Assembly (NCBI GenBank): GCA_045535815.1
Contig: JAZSMJ010000014.1
Coordinates: forward strand, 1,696-65,695
DNA from: Eubacteriales bacterium
GTDB lineage: Bacteria > Bacillota > Clostridia > Oscillospirales > CAG-272
DNA length: 64,000 nucleotides
Reading direction: 5' to 3'
Positions 21,800-30,658 of this stretch are shown here, in pieces. The notes under the pieces are model-generated. The model saw nothing but the letters and a program-made list of their open reading frames with translations. It did not search any database and was not told where the DNA came from. Positions within the stretch are counted from its first letter, which is position 1. The number at the start of each line of letters is the position of its first letter. The position numbers were made by a program, and so were the translations under genes.

Positions 21800-22852
21800 A
21801 TGAAACAACGAATTCAATGCATATCACTTATTCTATGTCTCTTTTTCATTTGCACAGCACTCTCTTCGTGCTCGCAAAAAATGACAAAAAACAAATATAC
21901 TGCCTATTCGATGGACTATTTTGATACGGTGATCACCATTGTAGGATATGAAAACACAAAACAAGAATTTGACGCTGTTGCGAATGAGATCATTGCACAG
22001 CTCAAAGAATATCATATGCTTTATTCTATTTATCACCGCTTTGAAGGTATGGAAACCCTCTGTACGATAAATGATATATATAACGGCGAGCATCGCACAA
22101 CCGAAGTTGATAAGCGTATAATCGATATGCTTCTTTACGCAAAGGATATATACACAGCAACAGATGGCACCGTTAATATTGCTATGGGAAGCGTTCTCTC
22201 AATTTGGCATTCATACCGTGAAGAGGGCATAAATAATCCGTCAGAGGCTTCCCTGCCCCCTATGGATAAGCTTAGGACAGCCGCAGAGCATACCGATATA
22301 ACAAAGATGATTATCGACGTTGATAATAACACCGTTACCCTAAACGATCCTCTGATGAAGCTTGACGTCGGCGCTATCGCAAAAGGATATGCAACCGAAT
22401 GTGTCGCTCGCAGTATGGAAAAAATTGGGATCACGGGTTATATCCTGAACGTAGGCGGAAATATTCGTGCAATAGGATCAAAGCCCGACGGTGAATCCTG
22501 GACTGTGGGAATTGAAGATCCGCAGGGTGGAGACTATCTCGAATACCTTCAGCTGAATGGCTACTCGGTTGTGACAAGCGGCGCATACCAACGTTATTAT
22601 TACGTTGACGAAAAGGCATATCATCATATTATTCATCCCGATACGCTTATGCCGGCGGAAAACTATGTTTCAGTATCGGTCATCTGTAAGGATTCGGGGC
22701 TTGGAGATGCTATGTCTACTGCGCTCTTTTGTCTGCCGCTCGATCAAGGAATTGCTCTTGTTGAATCATATCCCGATCTCGAGGCTATGTGGATAACCGA
22801 AGACGGCGAAAAAGCCGTATCGTCCGGTTGGGATGAGTTTGTAAAAAAATAA
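21800..22852 (+). CDS. apbE: FAD:protein FMN transferase (ApbE family lipoprotein)
   Basis: 350 aa with lipobox TALSSC. It contains MDYFDTVITI, LDVGAIAKGYA, NVGGNI, SGAYQRYY and HHIIHPDT, the ApbE hallmarks. Confidence 0.9.
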   Translation: MKQRIQCISLILCLFFICTALSSCSQKMTKNKYTAYSMDYFDTVITIVGYENTKQEFDAVANEIIAQLKEYHMLYSIYHRFEGMETLCTINDIYNGEHRTTEVDKRIIDMLLYAKDIYTATDGTVNIAMGSVLSIWHSYREEGINNPSEASLPPMDKLRTAAEHTDITKMIIDVDNNTVTLNDPLMKLDVGAIAKGYATECVARSMEKIGITGYILNVGGNIRAIGSKPDGESWTVGIEDPQGGDYLEYLQLNGYSVVTSGAYQRYYYVDEKAYHHIIHPDTLMPAENYVSVSVICKDSGLGDAMSTALFCLPLDQGIALVESYPDLEAMWITEDGEKAVSSGWDEFVKK

Positions 22853-22906
22853 AATCGCAGACAATGAAAAGGAAGCCTTCGTTTATCGAAGGCAACGGCC
22901 AAAATT

Positions 22907-23290
22907 ATGATACAGAATTTTATAGCTCAATATAAGGACGTGCTCTATTTACTTGCCGAGTTTTCGTCCGGCACACTTGAACTTATAGGAATTATAATAA
23001 TTATAATTGGCTCTGTATATGCATTGATGCGTCTCATCAGCTCCATGCTGAAAAAGCAACAGTCCCATATCGTTGCTTCCCTTGGACGATCACTCGTGCT
23101 TGCATTGGAATTTAAAATGGGTGCAGAGATCATAAAAACGGTCACCATTCACGATCTTGAAGAGCTGGCTATCCTGGGAGTGGTAATTGTCATTCGTGCC
23201 CTGCTCGCATTTATTATCCATTGGGAAATAAGGAGCGAAGAAAAGGAAAAGGATCTAAAGAGCAAAAACAAACCCGTTGAGGATTTGTAA
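22907..23290 (+). CDS. DUF1622 domain membrane protein
   Basis: 127 aa. LGRSLVLALEFKMGAEIIKTV is the DUF1622 signature as I recall it. Confidence 0.6.
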   Translation: MIQNFIAQYKDVLYLLAEFSSGTLELIGIIIIIIGSVYALMRLISSMLKKQQSHIVASLGRSLVLALEFKMGAEIIKTVTIHDLEELAILGVVIVIRALLAFIIHWEIRSEEKEKDLKSKNKPVEDL

Positions 23291-23649
23291 AATAAGATTT
23301 TAGATTTCAAAAAAGCTGAATAGTTTCTGTAAGATGATTAAATACAATTATATATGTAATCACTACATCATTTACTACATCATTTCAAACGATTTATAGC
23401 ATATCAAAGCATATCTAAACTACTAAACTGTTAAAAGCAACAAAAGCCTATAAACAGATGATTTTCAGCTGTTTATAGGCTTTAAGTATAGCTTGGGCTA
23501 CAAAAGATATTTTCGGCTTTTTTGCGTATGAATTTGAACTCTTACGGCTTTAGTGATAGAGCAAATCAATGGTGTTTGCAAATACCTTCCTTTTTAGTTG
23601 CCCAATTGCTTCATAAAGTCCACCTCTTAAGAATGGCAAACGGGAATTT

Positions 23650-24102
23650 TTATAAGAATTTAATCATCTTGTAGAATTTGCCGTCTTTATCCTCATCTAA
23701 TTCGTAAATACTAAATCCGAGTTTTTTATACAGATTTAATGCTACAGTATTATCACAATCCACTCCAAGCACGATTTCTGAGTACCCTTTTTCCTTTGCA
23801 ATGGAGAGTATATATTGTAAAATCGCTTTACCATACCCTTCACCACGATAATTTTTCTTCACAACCAGACGGGGGAGATACAGACGTTTATCGGGCACGG
23901 TTTCGTATTCGGGCTTGTCATACACTAAATCACACATAGCAATATATTGATCTTCTACGGTCAGAATAAAAACATCACGATTCCCCGTTTTGATTTGTTC
24001 TTTAATCATATTTTCAGTATACTGGAATTTCTGCTTATTCCAAATCTCACTGCAATTCGAGTATTCTTCTGATCCAATTTGTTTAACACTATAAGCTTTC
24101 AT
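23650..24102 (-). CDS. GNAT family N-acetyltransferase
   Basis: About 150 aa from ATG 24102 (GGAG SD). RLVVKKNYRGEGYGKAILQYILSIAKEKGY is acetyl-CoA binding motif A. Confidence 0.8.
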   Translation of the reverse strand: MKAYSVKQIGSEEYSNCSEIWNKQKFQYTENMIKEQIKTGNRDVFILTVEDQYIAMCDLVYDKPEYETVPDKRLYLPRLVVKKNYRGEGYGKAILQYILSIAKEKGYSEIVLGVDCDNTVALNLYKKLGFSIYELDEDKDGKFYKMIKFL

Positions 24103-24507
24103 ATTTTTTCGTTCTCCTTTTGCCTTATTTGTTGAAGCCATATGATTTTTTCGTCAAATGCTTATTTAACTGTCTGTATCATAGTATAAATGAAAACGAT
24201 TTTCAATGCGAAAGGATTTGATTCTCATCGCTACGACCCTTCAAGTCCTTGTTTTATGCCTGTATCAAATAGAAAAACACTCCTTTCGGAGTGCTTCTCT
24301 ATTTGGTGGATGTCTATCGACTATAAAAAAGATATTTTGCGTTTTTAGTGATCGGATTTGAACCTACACATTATATCAATGCATAATAGATAATTGCAGT
24401 TATCTATTGGATTTTTTGCATTGGCATATCATAACATCTTGTATCATGTGTAACTACATATTGTATGATATCTTTGGAATATCGCATATTCAATTCAAAA
24501 TGCTATC

Positions 24508-24536
24508 TTGAAAAATTGTGAACTCTATTGTATAAT
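24508..24536 (+). promoter_or_regulatory. Sigma-70-type promoter (TTGAAA-17-TATAAT) of the ATPase-DUF4435 gene
   Basis: TTGAAA at 24508-24513, a 17-nt spacer, then TATAAT at 24531-24536. This leaves a ~155-nt leader before ATG 24698. Confidence 0.6.
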
Positions 24537-24697
24537 AAAAAGTGAGCAATATAGATATGTTGCTACTATGAGGTATATCTGTTTCTACAGCTAATCAGAT
24601 TTTGGCTGCAATGATGTTGCAGCCGGTAGGCCTGCTACATATCGCGAGGATAGACTTTGAGCATAAAAGAAAACTCCGATAAGGGAGGGAGTAGAAA

Positions 24698-26293
24698 ATG
24701 AGAATTAAAAAAGTGCATTTGGAACAGTTTAAACGCTTTACCGACCTAAGCATTCAAAACATACCCTCAACAGCAAAACTTGTAGTCTTGCTTGGTCCTA
24801 ATGGATGCGGGAAGAGTTCTGTTTTTGATGCATTCAAAACATGGCATCTTTTTAATGGCTATAGAAATGGAGCCAATAATGACTATTGTCGGAAAGATTC
24901 TGATAGTGCAAAAAATAGTTTTGAATTGGTTAACATAGATTTTCATACCGACATCTCTTCGTTTTCACAGGAGCAATGTCATCAATTTTTCTATTTTAGA
25001 ACGGCATACCGAAATTCTCCTCAAATTTCAATTAAAACGTTGAGTGAAGTAAAATCTCCACTTGAAACGGCTGATCATAAAATGATGATTCAGAATGATT
25101 CAACTGTAGATGATAACTATCAACGGCTTATTTCTGAAACTTTGTCACAATTTTATAGTGAAAAGAATGATGGAAAAACAGTTAAGTCATTAAGAGATGA
25201 AACGCTCAAAAAAATCAGAGAACCACTGAAGCGGCTTTTTTCTGATTTAACATTGACGGAAATTGGTTTGGTTACAGATAAGGCTGAGTTCTACTTTTCT
25301 AAGGGAACAACGACAAAGTTCGGTTATGAAAAATTATCTGGTGGAGAAAAGGCTGCTTTTGATTTGCTTTTAGATATGGTTATTAAAAGTGAATTTTACA
25401 AGAATACTATTTTCTGTATCGATGAACCTGAAACGCATATTCATACCAATTTACAAGCACGGCTTCTTACTGAACTATTCCAGCTTGTTCCAAATGAATC
25501 TCAGTTATGGATTGCCACCCATTCTTTTGGAATGTTAAAAGAAGCCAAAAAGCTCTTGGAGCAGCATCCTGGAGAAGTTGTTTTCTTAAACTTTGATGGA
25601 TATGATTTTGATGAGAATGTGACTTTAGAACCAAGTAGTTGTGACACATCCATCTGGAATAAAATGGTGGAAATAACGCTGGACGATTATGCACCGTATC
25701 TTTCTCCTGAGACAATTGTTTTTTGTGAAGGAACCACTCGAGGTAGAAAAAGGAAAGACTTTGACGCTCGTTGCTATTCTACCATTTTCAAGAGTACACA
25801 TCCGAACACCATTTTTTATTCACTTGGAGGTTGCAACGATATAGAAAGCAAACAATCTGTTGTTGATTTCATAACCAGTGTATCTCCATCTTCGACCATA
25901 GTACGTCTTGTAGATCGAGATGATAGAAGTCCTGAGGAAATTGCAGACCTACGAGCTGATGGCATTAAAGTGATTTCGCGCAGACACATTGAATCTTACA
26001 TCTTAGATGATTCTGTTTTAAAGAAATGGTGTCAAGAGACTAATTCACCGGATAAGGTGAATGATTTGTTAGCTATTAAAACACAAAAAGTCTCGGAAAG
26101 TGTTGCTCGCGGAAATGCACCCGATGATATCAAGTCCGCAGGAAACGACATTTGCACATTAGGGAAAAAACTTCTTGGTGTTACGTGTTGTGGTAATACC
26201 GGTGAAATGATTATGCGTGATACATTGGCAAAACTAATTACCCCAGATATGGATATTTATCAAGAATTAGAAAACGACATTTTTGGAAGCTAA
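24698..26293 (+). CDS. ABC-type (SMC/OLD-like) ATPase fused to a C-terminal DUF4435/TOPRIM-like domain; candidate single-gene defense protein
   Basis: 531 aa with GGGAGGGAG SD. Walker A is LLGPNGCGKSS (res 31-41). The signature-like motif is KLSGGEKAAFDLL. Walker B is IFCIDEPETHIH. The H-loop is WIATHS. The C-terminal ~200 aa carry IVFCEG (TOPRIM Glu), LVDRDDRS (DxD) and RRHIESYIL. Confidence 0.75.
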   Translation: MRIKKVHLEQFKRFTDLSIQNIPSTAKLVVLLGPNGCGKSSVFDAFKTWHLFNGYRNGANNDYCRKDSDSAKNSFELVNIDFHTDISSFSQEQCHQFFYFRTAYRNSPQISIKTLSEVKSPLETADHKMMIQNDSTVDDNYQRLISETLSQFYSEKNDGKTVKSLRDETLKKIREPLKRLFSDLTLTEIGLVTDKAEFYFSKGTTTKFGYEKLSGGEKAAFDLLLDMVIKSEFYKNTIFCIDEPETHIHTNLQARLLTELFQLVPNESQLWIATHSFGMLKEAKKLLEQHPGEVVFLNFDGYDFDENVTLEPSSCDTSIWNKMVEITLDDYAPYLSPETIVFCEGTTRGRKRKDFDARCYSTIFKSTHPNTIFYSLGGCNDIESKQSVVDFITSVSPSSTIVRLVDRDDRSPEEIADLRADGIKVISRRHIESYILDDSVLKKWCQETNSPDKVNDLLAIKTQKVSESVARGNAPDDIKSAGNDICTLGKKLLGVTCCGNTGEMIMRDTLAKLITPDMDIYQELENDIFGS

Positions 26294-26702
26294 CTTGATT
26301 GATGAGTGGTTACTCAACTTAATAATCTAAAAACTGACGCCCGGGGAGCCTTTAGGTCCTCGGGCATCGTTTACATAAGTTACGAAACGATAAACGGTAT
26401 TGATTTGAATTCAAAAGAGACAAATGTTTTTCATACTGTATCACTCCTTGTTTGTAATGGAACGATATAGGGTAACGATTTGTTTTTTCTTTAGGATAAT
26501 AGCATAAATTTTACAAGTATAAAATTTTAATATATTTTCCATCATTATAGGAAGCATCTTTGCTCACTCGTATGTGGAACAATATTTTCTAAACATAGTT
26601 TTGTCTTGTGGTTTTCATCGTGCGTTTACCAATCAGCCCCTTTAATTCCTACGAAGAATAGCGTAAAATTGTAATACCATATTCAATAAAGGAGCTGAAA
26701 AT

Positions 26703-27843
26703 ATGAGAACTTACACACAAGAAGAAAAACAAGCAGTTATTGATCGTTTCGTGTCCGGTGAACCGTCAGTAAATATCCTTGCTGAGACCAGCATACCCAA
26801 GAGTACATTTTATGGTTGGCTGCGTGCTTACCGAGAGGAGCAGGAATCCGACAAGCGAAAGACCGTTAACATTCGCAATTTTCATTTGCTTAAAAACAAG
26901 GTTGCACGCTTGGAAAGTATTATTGAAATTCTGAAATCTGCGACTTGTACAGCGAAGTCACCATTGAAGCAACGGTTATATGCTGCTGAACAGCTTTACG
27001 GGAAATACAATGTACACATTATTTGTGATGCGTTTGACATCCCCCGAGGAACATTCTATAACCATGTTCTCCGTAACAAAAGAGACAACACGTGGTATGC
27101 AAAACGTCGAGAAGAATTGAGGCTTCGCATACAGGAAATTTTCGACGAAAACAATCAGATCTTTGGTGCTGCCAAAATCACAGCCGTTTTGAAAAGTGAA
27201 GGTGTCAAGACAAGCAAAAAAATGGTAAGCACACTCATGCGTGACATGGGATTGGTAAGCATTCGTCAATCCGCAAAGAAACTGTACGATGATGAAGGAC
27301 GCGAACACAAAAATTACCTTAACCAAGAATTTGACACGAACAAGCCCAATGAGGTGTGGGTCAGTGATGTTACCTATTTCAAGTATAATGGAAACGCTTA
27401 TTACATTTGCGTAATCATCGACCTGTTCTCTCGTATGGTCGTGGGGTATAAAATAGGCAAGACCAACAGCACGCAGCTCGTAAAGTCAACTCTTCAAATT
27501 GCATATAGAGAACGTCAACCGGATTCAAATTTGATCTTCCATACCGACCGTGGTGGCAACTACCGTTCCAAAACAATGAACGATTATATTCGGTCGCTGA
27601 ACATCACACACTCATTCTCGCGTTCACACGTTCCATACGACAATTCTGTAATGGAGTCTTTCTTTTCATCCATGAAGCGTGAGGAACTGTATCGGACGAA
27701 GTACCGCTCAGAAGCAGACTTTCGAAAGGCTGTAGATCAGTACATAGTTTTCTATAATACCAAGCGTCCGCACCGAAAACTGTAATACAAGACTCCTGCA
27801 CAGAAGGAAGAGGAATATGCCTTGGAATATGAGGATTTATAAG
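26703..27843 (+). mobile_element. IS3-family transposase gene (single 360-aa ORF, HTH plus DDE/rve), with conserved C-terminal tail cut off by an in-frame TAA
   Basis: The N-terminal HTH is EKQAVIDRFVSGEPSVNILAETSIPKSTFYGWLRAY. The rve core is WVSDVTYF..DLFSRMVVGY..HTDRGGNY..YDNSVMESFF. After RPHRKL-TAA (27783-27785) the same frame continues YKTPAQKEEEYALEYEDL to 27843. I could not locate the IS terminal inverted repeats. Confidence 0.8.
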
Positions 27844-27983
27844 ACATGTGCAGTCAGACTGTAGGGTTCGAAAAGGATTGTTTTTGAATTTTTGGATTGC
27901 AAAATTGGGATTTTTCTGTTTTTAGTTCGAGTGATAAAAAGAAAATGCGACCTCGAAAAGCCGCATAAATACTGAGTTTATAA

Positions 27984-28031
27984 CAAAAACACCATTGAGT
28001 CCGAACTTATGGGTTCAGATTTCAATGGTGT
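27984..28031 (-). terminator. tmRNA rho-independent terminator
   Basis: Stem acaccattga (27989-27998) pairs with tcaatggtgt (28022-28031) around an inner imperfect stem. A U-run follows on the minus strand. Confidence 0.75.
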
Positions 28032-28038
28032 CTTCATA

Positions 28039-28381
28039 TGGTGGAGGTGGGGGGAGTCGAACCCCCGTCCGAAAAGGCATCCTCACAGCTTTCTCCGGGC
28101 GCAGACTGCCAGAAGTCTTACGTTAAGATATTTGACAGACGGAATGTCTTAACGGCAACCTTTTTATCCGTGACCGCTATAAAGATAAACTCACGGTTCA
28201 CGTTCACCACTGCGTCATGCCCCAAGCGAAGCCGTGGTACTCTTCGGTGGGACAGCTGCACTTAGGCAGCGAGAGCTAATTCGTCGTTAGCGTTTAATTT
28301 TAAGTTTGCGGCTTTGAAGAGTTTCCGCTACTCTGCCCGCTTACTGAGTCTCAACCTCCCCGTCGAAACCATTACACCCCC
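28039..28381 (-). ncRNA. ssrA: tmRNA (SsrA)
   Basis: The minus strand begins GGGGGTGTAATGGTTTCGACGGGG and ends GGACGGGGGTTCGACTCCCCCCACCTCCACCA. The acceptor stem has a G3:U pair. The internal tag reading frame is ..GCT AAC GAC GAA TTA GCT CTC GCT GCC TAA (..ANDELALAA). Confidence 0.95.
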
Positions 28382-28392
28382 ATATAATAATT

Positions 28393-28863
28393 TTACCAAT
28401 TACCCTTCATCGCACGGTCGATATCTCTGTCCGCCTGCTTTTTTGCCTCGCTGTCACGCTTATCGTAAAGCTTTTTACCCTTGCAAAGTCCAAGCTCAAC
28501 CTTTACTCTCGAGCCTGAAAAATACAGCGACAGCGGTATCAGCGTATAGCCCTGCTGTCCGATAAGACCGAGAAGCTTCATTATCTCCTTTTTATGCATC
28601 AGAAGCTTTTTATCTCTGAGCGGTTCACGGTTGAAGATATTGCCGTGCTCGTACGGACTTATATGGATACCGAAGGCAATAAGCTCGCCCTTTACGACCT
28701 GACAGTACGAATCCTTCAGATTTACAGAGCCGGCTCTTACGGATTTCACTTCCGTGCCGAAAAGCTGTATGCCCGCTTCGTATTTTTCCATAACGAAATA
28801 TTCATGATAAGCTTTTTTATTCTGAGCTATTATTTTGTTACCCGTTTTCTTTTTATCACTCAT
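28393..28863 (-). CDS. smpB: SsrA-binding protein SmpB
   Basis: ATG 28863 follows GGAGAAAG. It contains IAQNKKAYHEYFVMEKYEAGIQLFGTEVKSVRAG and LLLHKKEI-like motifs. It lies directly upstream of ssrA. Confidence 0.93.
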   Translation of the reverse strand: MSDKKKTGNKIIAQNKKAYHEYFVMEKYEAGIQLFGTEVKSVRAGSVNLKDSYCQVVKGELIAFGIHISPYEHGNIFNREPLRDKKLLMHKKEIMKLLGLIGQQGYTLIPLSLYFSGSRVKVELGLCKGKKLYDKRDSEAKKQADRDIDRAMKGNW

Positions 28864-28974
28864 ATTCTTTCTCCAAAGGTCGGTCATACTTTTCAGGAAG
28901 TGATAATATTATATCACATTCAAAAAAATATCTCAACATTTTTTATACAAGTATTTTTTACAAAAAAAGCGCTT

Positions 28975-29799
28975 TCATTCCATCAGCAGATTGGCATAGC
29001 CTTTATATGAAAGCTTTTCATACTCAAACGACAAAGCTACCTCTGCCTTATCGCCCAAAAGCGATGAATTTGGCAGATATACCTTTGCCTTTTTGCATCC
29101 GAATATTCTCATCATTGAATTTAAAATTCCTTGGATATATCCGTCGGGCGCAAGGCACTCCTTGATTATCAGCACACCGTCTTTTGCGCAGGAGACGAAT
29201 AGCGGAAATTCCCCATCGCAGGTCCTTGCCTTATAAAGACAACTGCCGTATTCCTTTGCAGAAAAGGCTATTGCATCCTCATCCCATATAATACATCCGG
29301 GATAGGATAAAGCTTTATTTCTTATGCTTGCATATTCAGAGGCTGAAACAGAGGCTATTTCAATTCCATCACCACAAGACAGCTCTGTTTTATATTTTTT
29401 CAGACAGAATGCTCCCGAAAAGCCAAGATTTTTATAATATCGTGATAGCTTTTCGTTTGCAGGGCAAAGGAAAAGGAGCGCTTCTCTTTTTTCGGCTTCC
29501 TCTTTTGCAAAAGCGATTATTCTCTCTCCAAAACCTTTTCCTCTGTATGACGGAAGAATTCCAAGGGCATACAGATAAAGGGCGTTTATACAGCCATTTT
29601 CGGCCACACACTGCGTATTCAAAAGATACGTTGCACCGATAAGCTCACCGTCGACATACGCTCCGATAATCACGGCCTTTTCTGCCCATTCGTCAAAAAA
29701 AGCGTTAATATACGAAACGTCATCTCCAAAGCAGGTCTTCCAAATATTGAACAGGGCCTGCCTTTCATTTATATCGGTTAAAGAAACTCGAAAATCCAT
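28975..29799 (-). CDS. GNAT family acetyltransferase-like protein
   Basis: About 274 aa from ATG 29799, 4 nt after the ispE stop. ALGILPSYRGKGFGERIIAFAKEEAEKRE is acetyl-CoA binding motif A. Confidence 0.65.
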   Translation of the reverse strand: MDFRVSLTDINERQALFNIWKTCFGDDVSYINAFFDEWAEKAVIIGAYVDGELIGATYLLNTQCVAENGCINALYLYALGILPSYRGKGFGERIIAFAKEEAEKREALLFLCPANEKLSRYYKNLGFSGAFCLKKYKTELSCGDGIEIASVSASEYASIRNKALSYPGCIIWDEDAIAFSAKEYGSCLYKARTCDGEFPLFVSCAKDGVLIIKECLAPDGYIQGILNSMMRIFGCKKAKVYLPNSSLLGDKAEVALSFEYEKLSYKGYANLLME

Positions 29800-29803
29800 A
29801 AGA

Positions 29804-30658
29804 TCAGTTAGGCAGACAGACAAACGCCCGATAGCCTTCCGATACAAGCAGATCTGCAACCTTTTTTGCGCTCGGTCTGTCAGGATATACGCCAAATATA
29901 GATGGTCCGCTTCCGCTCATTAGCGTACCGAGAGCTCCGTTTTCATCCATAATACCCTTTATTTTTGCGGCATTCGGATTTTTAGGAAGTATAATACTCT
30001 CAAAGGCATTATACATGTTTTGAGCTATTTTAAGAAGATTACCCGATTCAAGTGCTTCAAAAAACGAGGTGCTGTCACCGCCGACGTATCCTACACGGTC
30101 AAGCTCTGAATATGCGCTTGCAGACTGAGAGGTTTCATTGCTGACTGCGATAACGAACGCACATGAAGGAAGCTTGGGGCACTCCGAAAAGATATCCCCA
30201 ATTCCCTGCGCACGCAAAACTCCTCCTCTTATGCAAAAAGGAATATCTGCGCCAACGCTTGCACCTATCTCGCAAAGCTCGTCTACCGTAAGCTCCGTGC
30301 CGTATATTCGGTTGAGCAATATCAGTACCGCCGCGGCATTGGTACTTCCGCCTGCAAGCCCTGCGGCTATCGGGATATGCTTTTCTATGGTTATCTTTAT
30401 ATTGGCATCGGTAATATTATATTTATTATAAAAGCTCTGCGCAGCCTTTACTGCAGTGTTCTCGCAATCAAGCGGAATATCGCCGTTTGTGCAGTCCACG
30501 GTTATTCCACCGCCTTGAGTTTTTTCAACCGTTACGGTGTCTGACAAAGACACCGATTGCATAACGGTATCAAGCTCGTGATAACCGCTTGGAAGTCTGC
30601 CCACGACGTCAAGATAGAGATTTATTTTGGCAAAGGCTTCAATTGACGATCTATCCAT
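29804..30658 (-). CDS. ispE: 4-diphosphocytidyl-2-C-methyl-D-erythritol kinase
   Basis: FAKINLYLDVVGRLPSGYHELDTVMQSV and KHIPIAAGLAGGSTNAAAVL are GHMP kinase motifs. ATG 30658 follows GGAG. Confidence 0.9.
   Translation of the reverse strand: MDRSSIEAFAKINLYLDVVGRLPSGYHELDTVMQSVSLSDTVTVEKTQGGGITVDCTNGDIPLDCENTAVKAAQSFYNKYNITDANIKITIEKHIPIAAGLAGGSTNAAAVLILLNRIYGTELTVDELCEIGASVGADIPFCIRGGVLRAQGIGDIFSECPKLPSCAFVIAVSNETSQSASAYSELDRVGYVGGDSTSFFEALESGNLLKIAQNMYNAFESIILPKNPNAAKIKGIMDENGALGTLMSGSGPSIFGVYPDRPSAKKVADLLVSEGYRAFVCLPN

What the first reader, a model, noticed from the sequence alone, without database searches (positions are those of the whole stretch)
24698..26293. One-polypeptide ABC-type ATPase + DUF4435/TOPRIM-like protein: candidate single-gene anti-phage module (PARIS/OLD-like)
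Seen in sequence: the 531-aa ORF has a complete ABC/SMC-type ATPase motif set in its first ~330 aa. These are Walker A GPNGCGKSS, LSGGEK, Walker B CIDEPETHIH and H-loop ATHS. The ~200-aa C-terminal domain carries a TOPRIM-style acidic pattern: FCEG, then LVDRDDRS, then RRHIESYIL. It has its own strong promoter and SD. It has no co-oriented partner gene. It sits between a GNAT gene and an IS3 transposase, ~1.7 kb from tmRNA. Established knowledge: PARIS is described as an AriA ATPase plus an AriB DUF4435/TOPRIM nuclease. OLD-family nucleases (P2 Old, Gabija GajA) combine an ABC ATPase with a TOPRIM domain. Inference: this protein collapses both activities into one short chain without a GajB-like helicase. 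It is therefore either a fused PARIS variant, a class-1 OLD relative, or an undescribed minimal variant.
Basis: partly seen in the sequence, partly recalled or inferred. Interest (0 to 1): 0.75.

Follow-up and report, generated by a model that had tools for sequence, protein, structure and literature searches.

The report
Divergent single-gene PARIS-like defence protein
This gene encodes one protein that joins an ATP-driven sensor to a nuclease; it is a distant, unannotated relative of the already described fused form of the PARIS anti-phage system and is usually found inside restriction-modification operons, so it is a credible but not fundamentally new immune gene.

Summary
Window 24698-26293 (+) is an intact 531-aa gene with a complete ABC-ATPase motif set, an invariant Toprim-like acidic pattern, its own promoter-like site and a strong ribosome-binding site. 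It belongs to a large, length-conserved family (>5,400 clusters; at least 324 species across many phyla) that sources name only 'AAA family ATPase'. Its best defence-library match is the fused AriAB (PARIS) model. Profile-profile comparison with two bona fide fused AriAB clades gives 99.4% and 99.0% probability, collinear across the ATPase-Toprim junction, with the catalytic acids aligned. It is not a member of either modelled clade: it scores 56 and 95 bits, whereas true members score 518 and 668. Pfam DUF4435 is below threshold, and the last ~85 residues are a family-specific helical subdomain. No partner gene is conserved. R-M genes lie within four genes in 32% of 81 loci, and close relatives sit between hsdS and hsdR. 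The window copy is an orphan cassette next to an IS3 transposase gene and tmRNA. Fused PARIS was already described in 2022 and 2024, so this is a new variant of a known kind. Function and target are inferred, not shown.

The parts
24508..24536 (+). Sigma-70-type promoter-like site (TTGAAA, 17 nt, TATAAT), about 160 nt upstream of the ATG
   Evidence: Consensus scan, 11 of 12 matches, the best site in 23500-28500. It is not conserved in the closest homologous locus L002, so it is a local feature of this copy. Function not shown.
24683..24689 (+). Shine-Dalgarno sequence GGGAGGG, 8 nt before the ATG
   Evidence: Read directly from the sequence.
24698..26293 (+). Coding sequence of the 531-aa single-chain ABC ATPase-Toprim protein (divergent AriAB-like)
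   Evidence: ORF list. More than 5,400 homologues, nearly all 529-535 aa. Best PADLOC match is AriAB, E 9e-28. hhalign to bona fide AriAB clades: 99.4% and 99.0%.
24698..25597 (+). N-terminal ABC/SMC-type ATPase domain (aa 1-300). Walker A at 24794-24820, signature LSGGEK at 25334-25351, Walker B CIDEPE at 25415-25432, H-loop ATHS at 25514-25525, and a short helical insertion (aa 137-180) in place of a long coiled coil
   Evidence: Pfam AAA_21, AAA_15 and SMC_N. Motif residues are invariant. The full-length model (pLDDT 82.8) matches PtuA, GajA, retron Eco8 effector and Rad50 heads at E down to 1e-11.
25598..25702 (+). Inter-domain linker (aa 301-335), partly low-confidence in the model
   Evidence: pLDDT below 50 for aa 324-334. 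The hhalign alignments to AriAB run straight through this region.
25703..26032 (+). Toprim core of a DUF4435-like nuclease domain (aa 336-445). Candidate metal ligands are E344, D356, D406, D408 and E432
   Evidence: Pfam DUF4435 at E 3e-4 and 20.9 bits, below its cut-off of 27. PADLOC AriAB E 1e-7 and AriB E 4e-4 on the C-terminal part alone. hhalign of this domain against bona fide AriAB: 96.6%, E 7e-10, with E344/E296, D356/D303, D406 and D408/D348 and D350, and E432/E374 aligned. The model has a beta-alpha-beta-alpha-beta-alpha-beta order. The best PDB fold hit is the OLD Toprim region 6nk8, but it is weak (E 0.017, TM 0.31).
26033..26290 (+). Family-specific C-terminal helical subdomain (aa 446-531) with invariant S468, R471, D476, D477, K479, S480, C498, G499, R507 and D508. 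Candidate dimerisation or substrate-recognition module
   Evidence: Invariant columns. Confident helices in the model (pLDDT about 90-97). No similarity to bona fide AriAB (hhalign probability 0.4%). It travels together with the Toprim core in 641-659 aa proteins that have a non-ATPase N-terminus.
26339..26365 (+). GC-rich 3' hairpin (9-bp stem, GCCCGGGGA / TCCTCGGGC), probably a transcript-end structure and the last part of the cassette shared with other genomes
   Evidence: RNA fold of 26294-26385: -29.5 kcal/mol, z = -3.2, and 0 of 200 shuffles fold as well. Conserved in L002, after which similarity ends near 26385. It lacks a clear T tract, so terminator function is inferred only.

Best explanation
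The gene encodes a stand-alone anti-phage or anti-mobile-element protein of the PARIS / OLD-class-4 type, in which the AriA-like ABC ATPase (sensor and switch) and the AriB-like DUF4435/Toprim nuclease (effector) form one 531-aa chain. It is a third, divergent lineage beside the two described merged ariAB clades. Proposed mechanism, with the basis of each step marked. (1) The gene is expressed from its own promoter and strong ribosome-binding site (sequence shown; activity inferred). (2) The ATPase heads pair through Walker A and signature motifs, as in Rad50, PtuA and AriA, and hold the tethered Toprim domain inactive (inferred from homology). (3) A phage-encoded trigger binds the ATPase part. 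By analogy with PARIS, and because the gene habitually sits between hsdS and hsdR, this is most plausibly an anti-restriction protein that inhibits type I R-M. ATP binding or hydrolysis then drives a conformational change (inferred). (4) Because the nuclease cannot be released as free AriB, activation must happen in cis or by re-pairing of Toprim domains within an oligomer, possibly through the family-specific C-terminal helical subdomain (inferred). (5) The two-metal Toprim site (E344, D356, D406, D408, E432) cleaves nucleic acid, most likely tRNA anticodon stem-loops as AriB does, which stops translation and aborts infection (inferred; the target is untested). In this window the gene is an orphan copy: a ~1.7-kb cassette in a low-GC patch beside an IS3 transposase gene and tmRNA, with no R-M system in the 64 kb.
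For: Architecture and motifs. Best defence-library match is fused AriAB for this protein and for all 28 family members tested. hhalign to bona fide AriAB clades: 99.4%, E 6e-22 and 99.0%, E 5e-18, both collinear from the ATPase C-lobe through the linker into the Toprim core. The C-domain alone gives 96.6%, E 7e-10, with the acidic residues aligned. The reference clades were verified as bona fide: 518 bits end-to-end on PDLC02982 with DUF4435 at 51.5 bits, and 668 bits end-to-end on PDLC02981. Defence-type context: no conserved partner; R-M components within four genes in 26 of 81 loci. In four exact-gene look-ups of relatives 67-72% identical, the order is hsdM-hsdS-X-hsdR, with 2-17 nt gaps in three (L113-L115) and an additional KAP NTPase gene between X and hsdR in L001. 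Other neighbours include type IIG enzymes, TIR proteins, PADLOC candidate systems, integrases and IS elements. Patchy distribution across many phyla. GC dip at 23000-27000. DNA similarity to the nearest locus is limited to the gene plus its 3' hairpin. Mechanistic precedent for ATPase-gated AriB tRNase activity and for Ocr as trigger: PMC11464382, PMC12409363. Existence of fused forms: PMC9122126.
Against: No experiment exists for this family or, as far as the searched literature shows, for any fused AriAB. Pfam DUF4435 is below its gathering score (20.9 against 27). Scores on both AriAB models are low and partial compared with true members (56 against 518 bits, and 95 against 668). Fold searches of a confident C-domain model gave no significant match, and AriB was not among the top 50. 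The C-terminal ~85 residues have no counterpart in AriAB, so dimerisation and substrate choice may differ. The release mechanism shown for AriB cannot apply to a fused chain. The window copy has no R-M neighbour, so the guard idea does not explain this locus. The family is nearly absent from phage and plasmid collections, unlike canonical PARIS, which is often carried by satellites and prophages.
Confidence: 0.65

Rival explanations
1. It is a class-1 OLD-type nuclease: a single-gene ABC ATPase-Toprim enzyme that degrades DNA (exo- or endonuclease on phage or damaged DNA) rather than a PARIS-like tRNase.
For: It is a single gene with no conserved partner. The best PDB fold hit of the C-domain is the Toprim-containing C-terminal region of Burkholderia OLD (6nk8). 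GajA and the retron Eco8 OLD effector are among the full-length fold hits. A weak OLD-like 'ATP-dependent endonuclease' hit appears in the viral library. The 2023 OLD review notes that fused AriAB may not differ in operation from class 1 (PMC10568477).
Against: The 6nk8 hit is weak (E 0.017, TM 0.31). There is no Toprim_Old (PF20469) hit even at E <= 1, and the only Toprim-type Pfam or PADLOC hits of the C-domain are DUF4435, AriAB and AriB. hhalign to AriAB is strong and collinear. The full-length fold hits are driven by the shared ATPase head.
Confidence: 0.15
2. It is an accessory subunit or regulator of type I restriction-modification rather than an autonomous immune effector. For example, it could be an ATP-dependent factor that modulates or backs up HsdR activity, and the window copy would be a stranded remnant.
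For: It is inserted between hsdS and hsdR, with 2-17 nt gaps in three of the four exact look-ups (L113-L115) and with a KAP NTPase gene before hsdR in the fourth (L001). Type I genes lie next to it in 17 of 81 loci.
Against: About two thirds of loci have no recognisable R-M neighbour, and some have type III or type IIG systems instead. The window copy is intact, has its own promoter-like site and keeps every invariant residue. The Zymomonas plasmid copy stands alone among toxin-antitoxin genes. Independent defence genes embedded in type I operons are a known pattern (bioRxiv 10.1101/2024.04.04.588119).
Confidence: 0.1
3. It is a selfish addiction-type or housekeeping DNA-repair ATPase-nuclease (RecF/RecN/SbcC-like head plus Toprim) with no role in immunity.
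For: There are weak NCBIfam and Pfam hits to RecF, Rad50, SMC and UvrA heads. The Zymomonas plasmid copy lies between toxin-antitoxin modules.
Against: Those hits cover only generic ABC motifs and are far below the family cut-offs. The distribution is sparse and patchy, with variable neighbours (112 of 156 immediate neighbours are unique to one locus). The gene associates with R-M systems and mobile elements. The effector module also occurs behind a different N-terminal domain, as is typical of defence proteins.
Confidence: 0.05

Closest known systems
[quoted passage not shown] 2022, PMC9122126; 'merged 1' and 'merged 2' in Burman et al. 2024, PMC11464382; PADLOC models PDLC02981 and PDLC02982)
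   Same: One polypeptide with an N-terminal AAA_15/AAA_21-type ABC ATPase and a C-terminal DUF4435-type Toprim core. The size matches one clade (531 against ~533 aa). Homology is collinear across the junction (hhalign 99.4% and 99.0%). The catalytic acids align. The unusual Walker A GPNGCGKSS and the 'HIE-YLL' motif are shared with the 694-aa clade.
   Different: Identity is only about 21-24%. The protein scores 56 and 95 bits, with partial coverage, on models where true members score 518 and 668 bits end-to-end. Pfam DUF4435 is below threshold here but clearly above it in true members. The C-terminal ~85 residues are unrelated. The helical insertion in the ATPase is shorter than in the 694-aa clade. 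NCBI names the family 'AAA family ATPase', not 'DUF4435 domain-containing protein'.
Canonical two-gene PARIS (AriA + AriB, E. coli B185; PDB 8UX9)
   Same: An ABC ATPase paired with a DUF4435/Toprim two-metal nuclease. The spacing between the first glutamate and the DxD/E motif is the same (E26 to D88 in AriB, E344 to D406 here: 62 residues; PMC11464382). The logical link to anti-restriction and type I R-M is also shared.
   Different: There are two genes and a 6:3 propeller complex that releases AriB on trigger binding, and a fused chain cannot release its nuclease. AriA is reached only weakly by sequence (E 0.013) and AriB not at all. As a control, even a bona fide merged AriAB profile fails to reach AriB in the PDB. 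Canonical PARIS is often satellite- or prophage-borne, whereas this family is almost absent from phage records.
Class 1 OLD nucleases (P2 Old, Thermus scotoductus OLD, PDB 6P74) and class 2 GajA
   Same: ABC ATPase plus Toprim in one chain. Class 1 is also a single gene. The weak best fold hit of the C-domain is an OLD Toprim region.
   Different: There is no Toprim_Old Pfam hit, and the Toprim core is of the DUF4435 type. No GajB-like helicase or any other conserved partner is present. OLD enzymes are DNA nucleases, and the target here is unknown.
Septu PtuA and retron-associated PtuA ATPases
   Same: They are the closest solved structures for the ATPase head (Foldseek E about 1e-11; PADLOC PtuA 79 bits).
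   Different: PtuA works with a separate HNH nuclease, PtuB. No HNH domain or partner is present here, and the resemblance is confined to the shared ABC fold.

Membership tests
PARIS (AriA/AriB, including fused AriAB) | ABC ATPase of the AAA_15 / AAA_21 type | tested here: met
   AAA_21 at 65.4 bits (cut-off 27) and AAA_15 at 59.7 bits (cut-off 32.1). The motif set is complete and invariant.
PARIS (AriA/AriB, including fused AriAB) | DUF4435 (PF14491) Toprim nuclease domain at Pfam's threshold, the rule used for detection in Rousset 2022 | tested here: not met
   17.5 bits for the full protein and 20.9 bits for the C-terminal part, against a cut-off of 27, and only profile positions 4-112 of 238 are matched. 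A minority of the listed homologues (17 of 120) carry a precomputed PF14491 hit.
PARIS (AriA/AriB, including fused AriAB) | Homology of the nuclease domain to the AriB/AriAB Toprim core, with the catalytic acids conserved | tested here: met
   hhalign of the C-domain against bona fide AriAB gives 96.6%, E 7e-10, with E344, D356, D406, D408 and E432 aligned to invariant E296, D303, D348, D350 and E374. PADLOC AriAB E 1e-7 and AriB E 4e-4 on the C-domain alone.
Merged AriAB clades as modelled (PDLC02981, PDLC02982) | End-to-end, high-scoring match to one of the two fused-protein profiles | tested here: not met
   95.3 bits on PDLC02981 (best stretch covers profile positions 217-540 of 694) and 56.4 bits on PDLC02982. 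True members score 667.6 bits (positions 1-692 of 694) and 518.2 bits (positions 45-569 of 570). The scores would exceed the 80 and 20 bit cut-offs quoted in Rousset 2022 only if the PADLOC profiles are the same ones, which I could not verify.
PARIS (AriA/AriB, including fused AriAB) | Activation by a phage anti-restriction protein, and tRNA cleavage leading to abortive infection | not testable with these tools
   This needs phage challenge, trigger co-expression and tRNA sequencing. Only contextual support exists: the gene is embedded in type I R-M operons.
PARIS (AriA/AriB, including fused AriAB) | AriA hexameric propeller scaffold with trigger-binding pores and a coiled-coil insertion | not testable with these tools
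   Only a monomer model was made. The insertion is a short helical pair (aa 137-180). No multimer prediction was available.
OLD family, class 1 | Toprim_Old-type (PF20469) nuclease domain fused to the ABC ATPase | tested here: not met
   There is no PF20469 hit at E <= 1 on the full protein or the C-terminal part. The fold hit to the OLD Toprim region 6nk8 reaches only E 0.017 and TM 0.31.
OLD family, class 1 | Single gene without a dedicated partner | tested here: met
   No neighbour cluster is present in more than 20% of 81 loci.
Gabija (OLD class 2) | Adjacent UvrD-like helicase GajB | tested here: not met
   The neighbours in the window are a GNAT gene and an IS3 transposase gene. No helicase cluster is conserved next to homologues.
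Retron-associated OLD (class 3) / retron PtuAB | Adjacent reverse transcriptase and msr-msd non-coding RNA | tested here: not met
   The Rfam scan of 22000-30000 finds only tmRNA. There is no reverse-transcriptase ORF beside the gene, and none among the recurrent neighbours.

The most novel reading that the evidence does not exclude
This family is a separate lineage of single-chain ATPase-Toprim immune proteins that acts as an in-operon guard of restriction-modification. It would sense phage anti-restriction inhibitors of type I (and perhaps type III or IIG) systems. Because the nuclease is covalently tethered, it would be activated by a mechanism different from the AriB-release mechanism of PARIS, using its family-specific C-terminal helical subdomain for dimerisation or for a new substrate specificity. 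The same Toprim-plus-helical effector module also occurs behind a non-ATPase N-terminal domain, which would make it a portable effector with interchangeable sensors.
Probability: 0.3. Interest if true: 0.6.

Novelty: new variant of a known kind. Interest (0 to 1): 0.4.

Why it matters
If the inference holds, thousands of genes now labelled only 'AAA family ATPase', spread across many bacterial phyla and including gut Bacillota, are PARIS-like immune genes that domain-based annotation misses. The family would be a compact, one-gene model for a question the literature leaves open: how fused ATPase-Toprim proteins are kept off and switched on when the nuclease cannot be released. Its habitual position between hsdS and hsdR makes the 'anti-anti-restriction guard' idea directly testable with matched constructs. 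None of this changes the known categories. It extends the known diversity of the PARIS and OLD-type systems.

Tried and rejected
1. Sequence searches of the PDB with the protein, the family profile and the C-domain profile reached only ABC-ATPase heads and never AriB. This is not informative, because a bona fide merged AriAB profile also fails to reach AriB.

2. Fold searches of the confident C-domain model against the PDB and the viral library gave no significant match. Toprim proteins (OLD 6nk8, DnaG Toprim, RloB-like) appear only as weak hits. The full-length fold search is dominated by the ATPase head.

3. Exact-sequence look-ups of the window protein, SmpB (two possible starts) and ApbE, meant to find the source genome or an empty site, found nothing. 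P0086 was also not on record.

4. I looked for a direct repeat of the tmRNA 3' end and for IS or island terminal repeats, and found only chance-level matches. The island borders are therefore undefined beyond the GC dip.

5. A search for a conserved partner gene or partner RNA found none.

6. Phage carriage is negligible: 0 of 50,697 phage records and 5 close members in 2.9 million IMG/VR contigs. Plasmid carriage amounts to one full-length case.

7. I considered and rejected membership of Gabija, retron-OLD, Septu, AbiL and MADS. Only the generic ATPase part matches their models, and their partner genes are absent.

8. No homologue of the R-M genes seen next to the gene elsewhere occurs in the 64-kb window.
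Full report
**Observation**

The finding is accurate at the sequence level. Window 24698-26293 (+) is a 531-aa ORF with an ATG start. Every quoted motif is present. In an alignment of 28 family members that are 54-87% identical to the window protein, the key residues are invariant:
- ATPase: Walker A G33/K39, signature S214-G-G-E217, Walker B D242-E243, H-loop H275.
- C-terminal domain: E344 (FCEG), D406/D408/D409 (DRDD), R429/E432 (RRHIES).

Pfam places AAA_21, AAA_15 and SMC_N on residues 1-290 with E-values of 1e-17 to 2e-13.

The expression claims also hold. A TTGAAA-17-TATAAT site lies at 24508-24536 (11 of 12 matches), the best promoter-like site in the surrounding 5 kb. GGGAGGG lies 8 nt before the ATG.

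The neighbours are as described: a GNAT acetyltransferase gene on the opposite strand (23650-24141), an IS3-type transposase gene (26703-27785), and tmRNA (28039-28381) followed by smpB.

**The family**

The protein has more than 5,400 homologous clusters at E <= 1e-5. Almost all of those listed are 529-535 aa long, and where named they are called only 'AAA family ATPase'.

A pattern scan of one genome per species found 324 species with a full-length relative. They are spread over Bacillota, Bacteroidota, Spirochaetota, Pseudomonadota, Chloroflexota, Planctomycetota, Poribacteria, Saccharimonadia and others. The count is a lower bound, because only two peptide patterns were used. The distribution is sparse and patchy.

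The family is absent from 50,697 phage records. It has 5 close members among 2.9 million IMG/VR contigs and is full-length on one plasmid, Zymomonas pZMOB01, where it sits between toxin-antitoxin modules.

**What the C-terminal domain is**

This was the key test, and the evidence is mixed by method.

Direct evidence is weak:
- Pfam DUF4435 is below its cut-off (20.9 bits against 27, covering only the first half of the profile). No Toprim_Old hit appears.
- Profile searches of the PDB find nothing relevant.
- A confident model of the domain alone (pLDDT 87, pTM 0.84) shows a beta-alpha-beta-alpha-beta-alpha-beta core followed by helices. Its best PDB match is the Toprim-containing C-terminal region of Burkholderia OLD, at only E 0.017 and TM 0.31. 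The viral library gives only weak Toprim-type hits.

Profile-level evidence is strong:
- PADLOC's best match for the whole protein, and for all 28 family members tested, is its fused AriAB model. The C-terminal part alone hits only AriAB and AriB models (E 1e-7 to 4e-4).
- A distant tblastn hit on a Pseudoalteromonas replicon led to a 533-aa protein that is a bona fide fused AriAB. It scores 518 bits end-to-end on PDLC02982 and 51.5 bits on DUF4435.
- A 694-aa protein from a viral contig is a bona fide member of the other fused clade, with 668 bits end-to-end on PDLC02981.
- hhalign of the window family against these gives 99.4% (E 6e-22) and 99.0% (E 5e-18). Both alignments run without a break from the ATPase C-lobe through the linker into the Toprim core.
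- The C-domain alone gives 96.6%, E 7e-10. E344, D356, D406, D408 and E432 align to invariant acidic residues of AriAB.
- The 62-residue spacing between the first glutamate and the DxD motif equals that between E26 and D88 of E. coli AriB (PMC11464382).

As a control, the bona fide AriAB profile itself does not reach solved AriB by sequence. The absence of an AriB hit for the window family therefore says little.

**Where it differs from known fused AriAB**

- The window protein scores 56 and 95 bits, with partial coverage, on the two fused-AriAB models. True members score 518 and 668 bits. It therefore belongs to neither modelled clade.
- Its last ~85 residues form confident helices with invariant R471, D476, D477, K479, S480, C498, G499, R507 and D508. 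They show no similarity to AriAB (hhalign probability 0.4%).
- The C-domain profile finds only 768 representatives among 1.84 billion proteins, so it defines a tight family.
- Four of those representatives (641-659 aa) carry the same Toprim-plus-helical module behind an N-terminal region of about 450 aa that is not an ABC ATPase. This suggests a portable effector module.
- A sister clade of 535-536 aa proteins, 28-30% identical, also exists.

**Genomic context**

I called genes crudely in 81 homologous loci and clustered the neighbours.
- No neighbour family occurs in more than 20% of loci. Of the immediate neighbours, 112 of 156 are unique to one locus. The protein therefore has no obligatory partner.
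- The recurrent neighbours are R-M genes: HsdS (16 loci), HsdM (14), HsdR (8), type III Mod/Res (6 loci) and another methylase (3). In total, 26 of 81 loci have an R-M component within four genes.
- Among the other neighbours are MmeI-like type IIG enzymes, RhuM, SLFN/AlbA_2 proteins, KAP NTPases, TIR proteins, PADLOC candidate systems, integrases and IS21 genes, mixed with unrelated housekeeping genes.
- In four exact-gene look-ups of relatives 67-72% identical, the order is hsdM-hsdS-X-hsdR. Three (L113-L115) have 2-17 nt gaps. In L001 two unknown genes and a KAP NTPase gene are also embedded in the operon. One of these operons lies on an element with Mob, ParB and a serine recombinase.
- An 87%-identical relative lies next to an integrase, a recombinase and a DUF6602 gene.
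- Embedding of independent defence genes in type I operons is an established pattern (bioRxiv 10.1101/2024.04.04.588119).

**The window copy**

Here the gene is an orphan. No homologues of those R-M genes occur in the 64 kb.

GC content falls to 31-39% across about 23000-27000, against 40-47% in the flanks.

DNA similarity to the closest locus (Bariatricus, 83%) starts about 10 nt before the ATG. It ends after a conserved GC-rich hairpin at 26339-26365 (fold z = -3.2). The shared unit is therefore a ~1.7-kb cassette of the gene plus its 3' hairpin, and the promoter is local to this copy.

I could not define island borders. There is no tmRNA-derived direct repeat and no clear IS ends.

**Mechanism**

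What is shown: an intact gene, a complete ATPase motif set, a DUF4435-type Toprim core with conserved acidic residues, homology to fused AriAB across the junction, and a defence-type, R-M-associated, mobile context.

What is inferred: by analogy with PARIS (PMC11464382, PMC12409363), the ATPase part senses a phage trigger and uses ATP to license the Toprim nuclease, which cuts nucleic acid, most plausibly tRNA, and aborts infection.
- Because the nuclease is tethered, the AriB-release step cannot apply. Activation must be conformational, or by re-pairing within an oligomer, and the family-specific C-terminal subdomain is the obvious candidate for that role.
- PARIS is triggered by Ocr, an inhibitor of type I R-M. 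Together with the hsdS-X-hsdR placement, this makes an anti-anti-restriction guard role attractive.
- That idea does not explain the orphan copy in this window, nor the two thirds of loci that have no R-M neighbour.

I put 0.65 on 'PARIS-like single-chain defence nuclease'. Within that, I give only about one chance in three that the target is tRNA.

**Comparison and novelty**

Single-gene ariAB fusions were reported when PARIS was described (PMC9122126), and two merged subclades were placed in the PARIS phylogeny (PMC11464382). The 2023 OLD review explicitly leaves open whether such fusions work like class 1 OLD proteins (PMC10568477). I found no experimental test of any fused form in the searched literature.

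The finding is therefore not a new kind of system. It is a divergent third lineage with a different C-terminal subdomain. Domain-based annotation misses it, although PADLOC-type models probably flag it. I rate it a new variant of a known kind, with interest 0.4.

Noticed in passing
Proteins P0126, P0144, P0151 and P0204; the homologous region in the window is 25703-26290: Four 641-659 aa proteins carry the same Toprim-plus-helical C-terminal module (VFCEG, DRDDRS, LESYLL, RGNPADDLKSA) behind an N-terminal region of about 450 aa. That region has no ABC-ATPase hit in Pfam or PADLOC, and one protein shows weak squalene-hopene-cyclase-type repeat hits. The effector module seems to be combined with alternative sensor domains.
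   Followed up: partly
L089:8001-9611 and L091:7401-9008 (IMG/VR contigs): This is a sister clade of 535-536 aa single-chain ATPase-Toprim proteins, 28-30% identical to the window protein. It has the same Walker A (GPNGCGKSS) and a similar C-terminal end, but lacks the RGNxxDDxKSA motif. It scores about 112 bits, with partial coverage, on the AriAB model PDLC02981.
   Followed up: partly
window 24698-26293 (protein residues C37, C240, C343, C359, C379, C445, C498): Seven cysteines are invariant across the family alignment, from several phyla. One lies inside the Walker A motif, one precedes the Walker B motif and one precedes the Toprim glutamate. C379 aligns with an invariant cysteine of bona fide AriAB.
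   Followed up: no
window 26703-27785 (+): The IS3-family transposase is encoded as one uninterrupted 360-aa ORF (HTH plus rve core), without the usual orfA/orfB frameshift arrangement. I could not identify terminal inverted repeats for the element, so it may be a fused-frame variant or a remnant.
   Followed up: partly
window 23000-27000: A low-GC patch (31-39% against 40-47% in the flanks) covers the GNAT gene, the ATPase-Toprim gene and the start of the IS3 gene, immediately beyond the 3' end of tmRNA, a classic integration hotspot. No flanking direct repeat of the tmRNA 3' end was found.
   Followed up: partly
window 28039-28381 (-): ARAGORN reports an unusual tmRNA tag peptide (VPPKSTTASLGA) that does not resemble the common alanine-rich tags ending in LAA. 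The resume codon may be mis-assigned. The gene itself is a solid Rfam tmRNA match (159 bits).
   Followed up: no
window 23443-23483: A near-perfect 19-nt inverted repeat with a 3-nt loop lies between the DUF1622 gene and the convergent GNAT gene. It is probably a bidirectional terminator.
   Followed up: no
L113 (ENA contig k141_1321520), 1-15593: A complete type I R-M operon with the embedded homologue and an upstream SLFN/AlbA_2-HATPase_c_4 gene sits between Mob_Pre/ParB/TnpV genes and a serine recombinase gene. The whole defence block appears to be carried by a mobilisable element in a gut metagenome.
   Followed up: no
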